Shown here: in pieces, positions 3,001 through 6,000 of the stretch
How the letters are laid out: each line of letters begins with the position of its first letter
Numbering within the stretch: the first letter of the stretch is position 1
Virus genome (UHGV): UHGV-1833545
From: a virus
Direction: 5' to 3' (one strand)
DNA length: 10,664 bases
Position numbers: made by a program

Positions 3001-6000
3001 CCGGAACAGCGGCGCGCGTCATCCGCACCATACAGAGGCGCTGGCATAATGGGAGCCTTATCTTCAGTAATCAGAAAGGAGGGTAATCGTTCTGGCTGTA
3101 ACCATAATCATCTGCATGATTCTGGCTTACGTTTTTAGAGCGATTGTCTTTATCTTTGAGGCTGGCAACCATGTTGGAGATAGTTTCTGGTTGCTTGCCT
3201 TCCGCCTTTTCTTTAAGGGTTTGACCTGTTTTTGCAATAAACGGGATGCGTATTTCCATCTGGTAGCTGTCTGCGCCAGTCTTTTTGTTTGTGGTTAATA
3301 CTTTCTGGAGCACTAACCCGATTTTCTTTCCATGAAATTCAGGAGCAACAAATTTACTGGCGGAAACCATATGTTGCGTTAATTGTCCAATCCCGGCACA
3401 CCCCATCATGGCGTGAACGACATTTGCGCCAAATTTGTTTTCCGTTCCGTCATTTTTCTGAACACAGACGCTAAGATATTGGATTTTACGTCCGTCGTCT
3501 GATTCGCCAGAAAACTCAATAAATTTGGCTCCTTTTTCTGATTGCTTTAGTTCTGCTTCAGTAATGGTAATGATATGAGCGCCAGTTTCGTTAATAAAAC
3601 CACCTTGCCCTGCGGTCAGAGCTGCTTCTTCGTTATAAGTAAAAATCACGTTGCTCATGCGGCGTTTTCCTTAATTTGATGAACATTATTGATGCCGTAG
3701 TAATCACAAACAGTGGCATCGACGAAAGAGAGATCGTTATCAATCTCATTGGAGTCAAACATTCCCATTGGGGATTTAACAGTGTCTGCACCGTTGTTTT
3801 TCGTGGTGAAAAAGAACTGGTCATCACGGGTAAGGGTGCGAAGAACTATAGTAAACATGCCTTCGACAGTGATTTTTTCGTCCAGCATTTTGCCGATAGT
3901 CTTCATTTTCACGCGCCCCATAGGGGTTTCTTCGGTGTGTGCAAGAAAATAGACTCTCAGGTCATCAGGTGCATCCTGTGCAGCCTTAATCACCTCCCAT
4001 GCGTGGCGGCCTATCTCAGTAAATTTATCAAACGATTTTTCTTCTGAGCGGCGCATAAACTCATTGCTCATCACATACTGGAAGTCATCAACAATAACGA
4101 TTCTTTTCCCGTATTCGTGAGCACGCTTAATTACGGCAACTATTACGTCCCATTTGTCAGTGGTAACTACGGTTCCTTTTTTTGCTCTGGCATCCCATGC
4201 CATTCTTTTGATTTAAATGGTAGCGGCTTGCCTATTGGTTTTATAAGTATTGCTTCCTCTGGATTGATATTTCTCATGCTGGTTGATTTTCCGGTGCCAG
4301 ATTCACCGAGTATTAATGTTGCAGTTCCCATAATTTTCCTCAGAATGGTAATTCGGATGGGGATGAAAGAAACTTGCGCTCATTCATGCGCTCTCTTTGC
4401 GCCTGCCATAAGCAAAGTTGTTTCTTTGATTTATCTCCCGCTTTACGCCAGTAACGAGCCTCAGCAATGTGATACTCTCTTTTTAATCGACTTAACTCTG
4501 GAGTTTTCGCCAGCTCTACCGGAATCATTTTGACCTCCATTTTCTGTAGGCTTCGACGGCCTCACGAAACATCTTTTCATCGCCAATAAAAGTGGCGATA
4601 GTGAATTTAGTCTGGATAGCCATAAGTGTTTTATCCATTTTTGGGAACTCCTGGCTGATTAAGTACGTCGATGAGTCGTTTCCATCCGTCACGTAATTTG
4701 CGGGTGATTCGTTCAAGTAAAGATTCGGAAGGGCAGCCAGCAACAGGCCACCCTGCAATGGCATATTGCATGGTGTGCTCCTTATTTATACATAACGAAA
4801 AACGCCTCGAGTGAAGCGTTATTGGTATGCATATAAAAAGGCCCTCACACTGGAGGGCAAAGAAGATTTCCAATAATCAGAACAAGTCGGCTCCTGTTTA
4901 GTTACGAGCGACATTGCTCCGTGTATTCACTCGTTGGAATGAATACACAGTGCAGTGTTTATTCTGTTATTTATGCCAAAAATAAAGGCCACTATCAGGC
5001 AGCTTTGTTGTTCTGTTAACCAAGTTCTCTGGCAATCATTGCCGTCGTTCGTATTGCCCATTTATCGACATATTTCCCATCTTCCATTACAGGAAACATT
5101 TCTTCAGGCTTAACCATGCATTCCGATTGCAGCTTGCATCCATTGCATCGCTTGAATTGTCCACACCATTGATTTTTATCAATAGTCGTAGTCATACGGA
5201 TAGTCCTGGTATTGTTCCATCACATCCTGCGGATGCTCTTCGAACTCTTCAAATTCTTCTTCCATATATCACCTCAAATAAGTGGTTTGCTGCCTAATTT
5301 CATTTTCTGGCGACCAACACAAGTCACACCCATTTCACTGCGTGGCTTGCTGTACCATGTGCGCTGATTCTTGCGCTCAATACGTTGCAGGTTGCTTTCA
5401 ATCTGTTCGTGGTATTCAGCCAGCACTGTAAGGTCTATCGGATTCAGTGCGCTTTCTACTCGTGATTTCGGTTTGCGATTCAGCGAGAGAATAGGGCGGT
5501 TAACTGGTTTTGCGCTTACCCCAACCAACAGGGGATTTGCTGCTTTCCATTGAGCCTGTTTCTCTGCGCGACGTTCGCGGCGGCGTGTTTGTGCATCCAT
5601 CTGGATTCTCCTGTCAGTTAGCTTTGAGTAACGCTCCGTGATGCTTATCTCCACGGTTGCTGTCTTGCAGCTGCATTTCGCGCTACTCAAAGCCTTCTGC
5701 TTTGAATGCTGCCCTTCTTCAGGGCTAAATTTTTAAGAGCATCACCTTCATGGTGGTTAGTACGTCCTGCTGATGGCTAAATAGTACGATTTGTACTTTA
5801 TAGAGTCAATACAAAATGTTCTAAATATAATTAGTTTTTTATAACGCTTTGTATTTAATGGGTTTATATTTTGGAAAAAGAAAACCCGACGCTAAGGTCG
5901 GGTTATTGTTGTGTGTTTTAGAGTTGTGAGGCTGTTAACTAAATGTCTCTTCAGGCCACTGGCTGGCGATAACTTTCCCTACTACGGAACAGCTATCATT

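What the first reader, a model, noticed from the sequence alone, without database searches (positions are those of the whole stretch)
4160..4210. Sak4-like ATPase split exactly at an A_AAA_AAG slippery heptamer
The Walker A part (54 codons from ATG 4331) and the Walker B part (182 codons, 3655..4203) sit in frames offset by -1 and meet at an A7 run (4177..4183; minus strand CAA AAA AAG GAA CCG TAG). The zero-frame heptamer A_AAA_AAG is the classic dnaX-type -1 frameshift site. Adding one A gives a single 225-aa ORF. This could be a programmed frameshift or transcriptional slippage, a phase-variable tract, a real inactivating deletion, or a homopolymer sequencing error. If the gene is dead, the prophage recombination module is non-functional.
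Basis: partly seen in the sequence, partly recalled or inferred. Interest (0 to 1): 0.7.

Follow-up and report, generated by a model that had tools for sequence, protein, structure and literature searches.

The report
Sak4 recombinase broken by 4-bp deletion
A well-known phage recombination gene (sak4 of HK620-type prophages) is split in this E. coli prophage by an ordinary 4-base deletion, not at the nearby run of seven A's, which is normal, so this is a recently killed gene and not programmed frameshifting.

Summary
The break is elsewhere. The intact, biochemically characterised HK620 sak4 (hkaL, 226 aa) has the same A7 run, read in frame as GCA AAA AAA GGA. The window has lost one copy of a tandem TGGC-TGGC, 16 nt upstream of the heptamer. 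Putting TGGC back gives a protein 100% identical to HK620 Sak4, with 5 differences, all third-position. The deletion moves the reading frame by one base, which puts the native A7-G run into the A_AAA_AAG register as a by-product.

None of the relatives checked carries the deletion or an A6/A8 run: 33 fetched loci, 68 phage records and about 180 complete E. coli genomes. There is no SD-like element upstream and no stable structure downstream.

The window is a 2.9x-coverage gut-metagenome contig. A second assembly carries the same deletion and the same nonsense codon in a neighbouring TraR-like gene. The window alone also has a frameshifted integrase.

Verdict: an ordinary, recent pseudogene in a decaying prophage. 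Unstimulated slippage at the heptamer (about 0.3-4% in the literature) could leak a little near-full-length protein. That is incidental and untested.

The parts
3655..4331 (-). sak4 pseudogene (677 nt), an allele of phage HK620 hkaL/sak4 (681 nt, 226 aa) with a 4-bp deletion
   Evidence: Re-inserting TGGC gives a protein 100% identical to HK620 Sak4, with 5 nt differences, all at third codon positions.
4167..4331 (-). Upstream ORF of 54 codons. Residues 1-44 are authentic Sak4 N-terminus with Walker A (GESGTGKST). Residues 45-54 (HGMPEQKKEP) are out-of-frame sequence ending at TAG 4169..4167.
   Evidence: PHROG 2872, profile positions 1-47, E 1.7e-19.
3655..4203 (-). Downstream ORF of 182 codons. 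From residue 2 (AWDARAKKGTVV...) it equals Sak4 residues 46-226, including Walker B (IVIVDD). Its ATG 4203 came into frame only through the deletion and has no Shine-Dalgarno sequence.
   Evidence: PHROG 2872, profile 44-218, E 8e-84; anti-SD duplex -0.9 kcal/mol, against -6.1 for the real sak4 and ssb starts.
4199..4202 (-). The single remaining TGGC, which marks the 4-bp deletion and the true frame break. Relatives have TGGCTGGC here. The exact deleted 4-mer is ambiguous within the repeat.
   Evidence: (gap placed next to window 4198).
4188..4202 (-). Short hairpin TGGCAT-GGG-ATGCCA with a 6-bp stem. In intact relatives it is CTGGCAT-GGG-ATGCCAG with 7 bp. The tandem TGGC repeat forms its 5' base, which is a plausible context for replication slippage.
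   Evidence: folds of the window and of HK620. The link to the deletion mechanism is an inference.
4176..4183 (-). Native A7 run followed by G. It is read GCA AAA AAA GGA (A-K-K-G) in intact sak4 and CAA AAA AAG here, so the A_AAA_AAG register (4182..4176) is a by-product of the upstream deletion.
   Evidence: A7 is present in 33/33 related loci and 26/26 IMG/VR matches. No exact A6 or A8 allele is found in E. coli complete genomes.
3071..3658 (-). Cognate phage SSB gene (hkaK homologue, 195 aa), intact. Its ATG overlaps the sak4 stop (ATGA at 3658..3655), so translational coupling to sak4 is lost in this allele.
   Evidence: PHROG 743, E 8.6e-66; HK620 annotation; sequence. Loss of coupling is an inference.
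4340..4528 (-). hkaM homologue (62 aa, function unknown), the first gene of the HK620-type recombination module. Intact.
   Evidence: PHROG 1723; gene calls.

Best explanation
This is the sak4 recombinase gene of an HK620-type lambdoid prophage of E. coli. It was inactivated recently by loss of one unit of a tandem TGGC-TGGC repeat. The likely cause is slipped-strand mispairing during replication, at the base of a small hairpin.

Ribosomes starting at ATG 4331 make the first 44 authentic residues with Walker A. They then read 10 out-of-frame codons and stop at TAG 4169..4167. The remaining 181 codons (Walker B and the rest of the RecA-like core) are not translated to any useful extent, because the in-frame ATG 4203 has no ribosome-binding site.

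The A7 run is the normal Lys-Lys coding sequence of this gene. It appears as a zero-frame A_AAA_AAG only because the deletion 16 nt upstream moved the frame by one base.

The prophage lineage is decaying. A neighbouring TraR/DksA-like gene carries a nonsense codon, and in this contig the integrase is frameshifted too.

Shown: the deletion, its position, its absence from relatives, and the missing frameshift stimulators. Inferred: the slippage mechanism of the deletion, loss of Sak4 function, and reduced coupling of ssb translation.
For: (1) An alignment with HK620 sak4 shows one difference in length, TGGCTGGC against TGGC, and an identical A7 run. HK620 hkaL is an uninterrupted 226-aa ORF. Its product has been purified and shown to be an ATP-dependent annealase (PMC5928155).

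(2) The repaired gene encodes a protein 100% identical to HK620 Sak4. All 5 nucleotide differences are third-position, so the gene was under purifying selection until very recently.

(3) All 33 related loci carry an intact 681-nt gene with A7. Of these, 32/33 have TGGCTGGC and 0/33 have the deletion junction. All 40 phage records listed, of the 65 that cover at least 80% of the query, span 804 nt for 800 query nt. None of 181 E. coli complete genomes (207 places) matches the deletion allele better than 96.8%, which equals the 4-nt gap.

(4) The PHROG profile coordinates of the two fragments overlap at 44-47, upstream of the A run.

(5) There are no frameshift stimulators. The anti-SD duplex upstream is -4.0 kcal/mol, matched or beaten by 32% of 25-mers in the window, against -7.4 for a dnaX control. 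Downstream folds are no better than shuffles, with z of -0.08 and +0.51.

(6) The lesion is real. The window is 100% identical to ENA ERZ772887 NODE_1731. A second assembly (ERZ28663478, SAMEA2737735 scaffold_4150) has the same split gene.

(7) Other lesions lie nearby: TraR-like Q8* (shared with the second assembly) and an integrase +1 insertion at 596.

(8) The family at large consists of single ORFs of about 215-230 aa.
Against: The source contig has only 2.9x coverage (record name). The two assemblies share an identical 1365-nt host flank and may come from the same clone or even the same sample, so their independence is not established.

The heptamer created by the deletion is among the most slip-prone in E. 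coli. Some full-length-like product cannot be excluded, so 'dead' may really mean 'severely hypomorphic'.

No expression or activity data exist for this allele.
Confidence: 0.9

Rival explanations
1. Leaky pseudogene through adventitious, compensatory -1 ribosomal slippage. A small share of ribosomes slip at A_AAA_AAG and return to the original frame. They make a 225-aa Sak4 in which loop residues LAWDARA (45-51) are replaced by HGMPEQ. This could leave some annealase activity.
For: The heptamer is in the zero frame and lies before the stop codon. V_VVA_AAG heptamers slip at about 0.3% without stimulators in E. coli, and up to about 3.7% in a favourable 3' context (PMC4066793). Much higher values were reported on C_AAA_AAA in an overexpression vector (PMC1851650). 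The replaced segment is variable across the family. In the AlphaFold model it lies between strands 27-31 and 56-58, away from the Walker motifs. Compensatory frameshifting of indels is a recognised phenomenon (PMC5009743).
Against: There are no stimulators, so the yield should be at most a few percent. The substitution removes W47, which is Trp in 17 of 21 diverse homologues and sits in a confidently modelled region with pLDDT about 90. No selection is visible, because only one lineage carries the allele. Nothing has been measured.
Confidence: 0.1
2. Programmed dnaX-type -1 ribosomal frameshifting, or programmed transcriptional slippage on the A run, is the normal way this sak4 is expressed.
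For: A canonical A_AAA_AAG lies in the zero frame, and the downstream frame encodes the rest of the protein.
Against: Intact relatives read the same A7 in frame and need no recoding. The split layout is absent from every relative examined. The homology junction lies 16 nt upstream of the heptamer. There is no SD-like element and no downstream structure. Lys-Lys is not conserved in the family. From general knowledge, A7 is shorter than the runs of about 9 or more needed for efficient RNA-polymerase slippage in E. coli. The HK620 Sak4 paper makes no mention of frameshifting.
Confidence: 0.02
3. Sequencing or assembly artefact: the real DNA has TGGCTGGC and an intact gene.
For: The contig has 2.9x coverage. 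The 1-bp integrase insertion at 596 is absent from the otherwise near-identical second assembly, so this contig may contain errors.
Against: The same 4-bp deletion is present in a separately built assembly. The lesion removes a 4-nt repeat unit, not a homopolymer base. All homopolymers in the gene have wild-type length. A truly error-prone assembly of the same gene (L037) instead shows A7->A6 and A4->A3.
Confidence: 0.05
4. Phase-variable homopolymer tract: the A run switches length to turn sak4 on and off.
For: A7 runs can be mutable. One database protein (P0061) comes from an A6 version.
Against: The run is A7 in 33/33 loci and 26/26 IMG/VR matches. No exact A6 or A8 allele occurs among about 175-178 E. 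coli genomes that carry the gene. The single A6 case also has another homopolymer contraction, which is typical of read error. In the window the run has its wild-type length.
Confidence: 0.01

Closest known systems
Sak4 (HkaL) of Escherichia phage HK620, with its cognate SSB (HkaK)
   Same: Same gene and same module order (hkaM-sak4-ssb-abc2), with 98% DNA identity. The repaired product is 100% identical in amino acids. It has Walker A and B, a RecA-like core-only fold, and an adjacent atypical SSB gene. The HK620 protein is an ATP-dependent single-strand annealase stimulated by its SSB (PMC5928155).
   Different: The window allele lacks 4 bp (one TGGC) after codon 44. As written it encodes a 54-aa truncated peptide, followed by an untranslated remainder.
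E. coli dnaX programmed -1 frameshift site (A_AAA_AAG)
   Same: The slippery heptamer is identical and is in the zero frame.
   Different: dnaX has an SD-like element about 10 nt upstream and a stable stem-loop downstream, and the site is conserved. Here both stimulators are absent. The register exists in only one mutant lineage, and the frames do not join at the heptamer.
Compensatory ('savior'/corrective) frameshifting of indel mutants, such as herpesvirus thymidine kinase G-run mutants and pDEST17 C_AAA_AAA deletion clones
   Same: An indel is followed by a slippery run where low-level slippage can restore the frame (PMC5009743, PMC1851650).
   Different: No evidence here of any product, function or selection. 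The similarity is only a possibility.
Ordinary prophage gene decay (frameshift and nonsense pseudogenes in cryptic or defective prophages)
   Same: Several independent inactivating lesions lie within 4.3 kb of otherwise 98-100% conserved sequence: the sak4 -4 bp deletion, TraR-like Q8*, and the integrase +1 insertion.
   Different: Nothing distinguishes it from this category.

Membership tests
Sak4 family (RecA-core-only SSAP; Pfam AAA_24 PF13479 / PHROG 2872) | Profile match to the family model | tested here: met
   For PHROG 2872, the N fragment gives E 1.7e-19 and the C fragment E 8.2e-84. For Pfam AAA_24, the joined 225-aa sequence scores 30.4 bits against a cut-off of 27. Neither fragment alone reaches a Pfam cut-off.
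Sak4 family (RecA-core-only SSAP; Pfam AAA_24 PF13479 / PHROG 2872) | Walker A and Walker B motifs | tested here: met
   GESGTGKST is in the upstream ORF and IVIVDD in the downstream ORF. They lie in different reading frames.
Sak4 family (RecA-core-only SSAP; Pfam AAA_24 PF13479 / PHROG 2872) | RecA/Rad51-like core fold without extra domains | tested here: met
   The AlphaFold2 model of the 99%-identical intact homologue P0001 has pLDDT 84. Foldseek hits are RAD51 paralogues, RadA, KaiC and staphylococcal Sak4 8rc5, all with probability 1.00.
Sak4 family (RecA-core-only SSAP; Pfam AAA_24 PF13479 / PHROG 2872) | Adjacent cognate phage SSB gene | tested here: met
   ORF 3071..3658 matches PHROG 743 with E 8.6e-66, in the same position as HK620 hkaK.
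Sak4 family (RecA-core-only SSAP; Pfam AAA_24 PF13479 / PHROG 2872) | Single uninterrupted ORF of about 215-230 aa encoding a functional protein | tested here: not met
   The gene is split by a 4-bp deletion. It is therefore a pseudogene member of the family. Activity is not testable here.
dnaX-type programmed -1 ribosomal frameshift signal | X_XXY_YYZ slippery heptamer in the zero frame | tested here: met
   A_AAA_AAG at 4182..4176 is in the frame of ATG 4331.
dnaX-type programmed -1 ribosomal frameshift signal | Upstream SD-like stimulator about 10 nt 5' of the site | tested here: not met
   The best anti-SD duplex is -4.0 kcal/mol, and 32% of all 25-mers in the window do as well. The dnaX control gives -7.4.
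dnaX-type programmed -1 ribosomal frameshift signal | Stable downstream stem-loop or pseudoknot | tested here: not met
   Minimum free energies are -12.5 and -8.6 kcal/mol, with z of -0.08 and +0.51 against shuffles.
dnaX-type programmed -1 ribosomal frameshift signal | Two-frame gene layout and heptamer register conserved in homologues | tested here: not met
   0 of 33 loci, 0 of 181 E. coli genomes, and none of the 40 phage records listed. Relatives read the run in frame. Lys-Lys is not conserved in the wider family.
dnaX-type programmed -1 ribosomal frameshift signal | Trans-frame protein product observed | not testable with these tools
   Needs a reporter assay, Western blot or mass spectrometry.
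Phase-variable homopolymer (contingency) locus | Length polymorphism of the tract among close relatives | tested here: not met
   A7 in all relatives. No exact A6 or A8 alleles in E. coli genomes.

The most novel reading that the evidence does not exclude
The 4-bp deletion itself put a native A7-G run into the A_AAA_AAG register 16 nt downstream. Unstimulated -1 slippage there could return a few ribosomes per thousand to per hundred to the correct frame. That would make a 225-aa Sak4 with only a 6-residue loop substitution. The allele would then be a self-suppressing hypomorph rather than a null, a natural case of compensatory frameshifting in a prophage recombinase.
Probability: 0.1. Interest if true: 0.3.

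Novelty: already known. Interest (0 to 1): 0.1.

Why it matters
It matters mainly as a caution. A slippery heptamer in the overlap between two half-ORFs looks like programmed recoding, but one alignment with an intact homologue shows the frame break is elsewhere and the heptamer is a side effect.

Biologically, it means this prophage lineage has lost its own single-strand-annealing recombinase, or nearly lost it. Together with a nonsense codon in a neighbouring gene and a possibly broken integrase, this marks it as a decaying prophage. No new mechanism is implied.

Tried and rejected
(1) I recalled that HK620 sak4 might itself need a frameshift. The HK620 annotation, its translation and the Sak4 paper show it is a plain ORF. 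A literature search for 'Sak4' plus 'frameshift' found nothing relevant.

(2) The genome-contig scan for either allele found nothing. The IMG/VR and metagenome scans found only the intact allele.

(3) I looked for frameshift stimulators, using upstream anti-SD pairing and a downstream fold. Both were negative.

(4) I looked for A6/A8 length variants as evidence of phase variation. There were none in IMG/VR or in E. coli complete genomes.

(5) Protein P0061 looked like an A6 allele split at the run. Its contig also has an A4->A3 contraction and a further C-terminal frameshift, so it is read as homopolymer-type sequencing error.

(6) Independent initiation of the C-terminal ORF at ATG 4203 is rejected, because there is no SD sequence.

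(7) I could not establish whether the two assemblies that carry the deletion come from different samples. Their host flanks are identical.
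Full report
OBSERVATION. On the minus strand, ATG 4331 opens a 54-codon ORF, MGTATLILGESGTGKSTSMRNINPEEAILIKPIGKPLPFKSKEWHGMPEQKKEP*. It ends CAA AAA AAG GAA CCG TAG at 4184..4167. ORF 3655..4203 has 182 codons and carries IVIVDD. The A7 run is 4183..4177, and A_AAA_AAG (4182..4176) is in the zero frame of the upstream ORF. A -1 slip or one extra A does give a 225-aa ORF.

WHERE THE BREAK REALLY IS. The region is 98% identical to phage HK620 and HK629, and 95-99% identical to 67 of 68 phage records, many of them Stx-converting phages. 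In HK620 the gene hkaL (sak4) is one uninterrupted ORF of 681 nt and 226 aa.
- The alignment shows a single length difference. HK620 reads GAA TGG CTG GCA TGG GAT GCC AGA GCA AAA AAA GGA ACC. The window reads GAA TGG CAT GGG ATG CCA GAG CAA AAA AAG GAA CCG TAG.
- One copy of a tandem TGGC-TGGC is therefore missing. The remaining copy is at window 4202..4199. The A7 run is identical in both sequences and is read in frame (Ala-Lys-Lys-Gly) in the intact gene.
- The upstream frame is homologous only through W44. The downstream frame is already homologous from A46, before the A run.
- PHROG 2872 profile coordinates say the same without reference to HK620. The N fragment covers positions 1-47 and the C fragment 44-218.
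- The zero-frame A_AAA_AAG is a mechanical consequence. Deleting 3n+1 bases upstream moves the frame by one base over the native A7-G.

HOW UNUSUAL THE ALLELE IS.
- Re-inserting TGGC gives a protein 100% identical to HK620 Sak4. The 5 nucleotide differences are all at third positions. The gene was under purifying selection until the deletion, so the deletion is recent.
- All 33 related loci fetched have an intact 681-nt gene with A7. These are 26 IMG/VR contigs, 5 metagenome contigs and E. coli BY63, plus the HK620 GenBank record (HK620 is also among the 26 IMG/VR contigs).
- Of these, 32/33 contain TGGCTGGC followed by A7, and 0/33 contain the deletion junction.
- Among 5,426 complete E. coli genomes, 181 carry the gene at 207 places. 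None matches the window allele better than 96.8%, which is exactly the 4-nt gap.
- Queries with A6 or A8 versions found no exact match in 178 and 175 genomes.
- In the wider family (7,981 hits at E <= 1e-5) the top 120 are almost all single ORFs of 215-230 aa. Lys-Lys at this position is not conserved.

IS THE DELETION REAL?
- The window is 100% identical to ENA assembly ERZ772887 NODE_1731, a 14.6-kb contig at 2.9x coverage.
- A second assembly, ERZ28663478 (sample SAMEA2737735, scaffold_4150), has the same 54-aa and 182-aa gene pair. Over 4,895 nt it differs from the window at only three positions: 596, 2874 and 3021.
- The 1,365 nt of host flank shared by the two contigs (yecE-like DUF72, MAPEG) are identical. 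The two assemblies therefore represent the same clone. I could not establish whether they come from independent samples.
- The lesion removes a 4-nt repeat unit, and all homopolymers keep their wild-type length. An error-type assembly of the same gene looks different: Logan SRR12247604_491 shows A7->A6 and A4->A3 within 30 nt.
- I consider a sequencing artefact unlikely, at about 5%.

TESTS OF PROGRAMMED FRAMESHIFTING.
- Upstream anti-SD pairing is -4.0 kcal/mol. The background of all 25-mers in the window is -3.2 +/- 2.7, and 32% do as well. A dnaX control gives -7.4.
- Downstream 56-nt and 76-nt segments fold no better than dinucleotide shuffles, with z of +0.51 and -0.08.
- The split layout is not conserved in any relative.
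- The paper that characterises HK620 Sak4 describes a normal protein with ATP-dependent annealing activity stimulated by its SSB. It does not mention recoding (PMC5928155).
- Programmed frameshifting, transcriptional slippage as an expression mechanism, and phase variation are therefore rejected.

MOST LIKELY MECHANISM AND CONSEQUENCES.
- The tandem TGGC-TGGC forms the 5' base of a hairpin, CTGGCAT-GGG-ATGCCAG, with 7 bp in wild type and 6 bp in the window. Slipped-strand mispairing between the two repeat units is the simplest origin of the deletion. This is an inference.
- Translation from ATG 4331 ends after 54 codons. The in-frame ATG 4203 of the downstream ORF has no SD sequence (-0.9 kcal/mol, against -6.1 for the genuine sak4 and ssb starts). 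The C-terminal four-fifths of the protein are therefore probably not made.
- The ssb start overlaps the sak4 stop (ATGA, 3658..3655), so translational coupling is lost. ssb keeps its own SD sequence. This too is an inference.

RESIDUAL POSSIBILITY. A_AAA_AAG is among the most slip-prone heptamers in E. coli.
- Without stimulators the measured frequency is about 0.3%, rising to about 3.7% in the best 3' context (PMC4066793).
- A slip would give a 225-aa protein in which LAWDARA (45-51) is replaced by HGMPEQ.
- That segment is variable in the family, although W47 is Trp in 17 of 21 homologues.
- In an AlphaFold2 model of the intact homologue (pLDDT 84), it lies in a confidently placed non-regular stretch between strands 27-31 and 56-58.
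- A trace of partly functional protein is therefore conceivable, as in the compensatory frameshifting reviewed in PMC5009743. Nothing suggests selection for it.

CONTEXT. The window runs through the following genes (gene calls; homologies):
- minus strand: integrase, excisionase, a TraR-like gene, two unknown genes, abc2, ssb, sak4, hkaM, kil, cIII, ral, N and cI;
- plus strand: cro-like, cII, O-like replication protein, DnaB and an HNH endonuclease.
Two more lesions lie in the left arm.
- The TraR/DksA-like gene has CAG->TAG at codon 8 (1752..1750). This is shared with the second assembly.
- The integrase has a 1-bp insertion at 596 that splits it into ORFs 3..659 and 589..1263. This is absent from the second assembly, so it is either a private mutation or a low-coverage error.
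The picture is a prophage accumulating inactivating mutations.

COMPARISON WITH KNOWN SYSTEMS. The gene is a mutant allele of a known, characterised gene, HK620 sak4. Family membership is supported by profiles, motifs, fold and the SSB neighbour. The requirement for an intact ORF is not met, so it is a pseudogene member. It shares only the heptamer with the dnaX frameshift signal, and every other defining feature tested was negative.

VERDICT. The interpretation as recoding is not supported. This is an ordinary, recent frameshift pseudogene. Interest is low.

Noticed in passing
window 3..1263 (minus strand), insertion at 596: The integrase gene (1260 nt, 419 aa in E. coli BY63 and in the second metagenome assembly) is split into ORFs 3..659 and 589..1263. 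The cause is one extra base at 596 (+ strand CCGTAGACG against CCGT-GACG), which is not in a homopolymer. It is present only in this 2.9x-coverage contig, so it may be a private mutation or an assembly error.
   Followed up: partly
window 1555..1773 (minus strand), codon at 1752..1750: The TraR/DksA-family gene has CAG->TAG (Q8*) relative to E. coli BY63. The same base is present in the second assembly (L035), where no gene is called at this spot. This is a second shared inactivating lesion in this prophage lineage.
   Followed up: partly
L037 (Logan SRR12247604_491) 724..965: Another copy of the same sak4 shows A7->A6 at the run, A4->A3 a further 26 nt upstream, and a further C-terminal frameshift. 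It gives the 166-aa database protein P0061. This looks like homopolymer-type read error, and it is what a real homopolymer artefact in this gene looks like.
   Followed up: partly
L001 (HK620) 1713..1722, equivalent to window 4176..4185: In intact sak4 the run is read GCA AAA AAA GGA, so a slippery A_AAA_AAA heptamer is in the zero frame of the wild-type gene. A -1 slip there would end after 6 more codons (RNRSYH*), giving a peptide of about 59 aa that carries only Walker A. It has no stimulators and Lys-Lys is not conserved in the family, so it is probably insignificant.
   Followed up: no
window 3655..3658: The sak4 stop and the ssb start overlap as ATGA, which suggests translational coupling of the annealase with its stimulatory SSB. 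The premature stop at 4167 uncouples them in this allele.
   Followed up: no
window 2800..3020 (abc2, minus strand): The abc2 anti-RecBCD gene is a mosaic patch. It differs much more from the BY63 prophage (dozens of substitutions and small compensating indels) than the flanking sequence, which is 98-100% identical. The only two substitutions between the window and the second assembly (2874 and 3021) also fall here.
   Followed up: no
L016 (E. coli BY63) 5900..5997, against window 5016..5195: The ral antirestriction gene is annotated as a frameshifted pseudogene in the BY63 prophage. In the window it is an intact 59-aa ORF. Different members of this prophage group have lost different accessory genes.
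   Followed up: no
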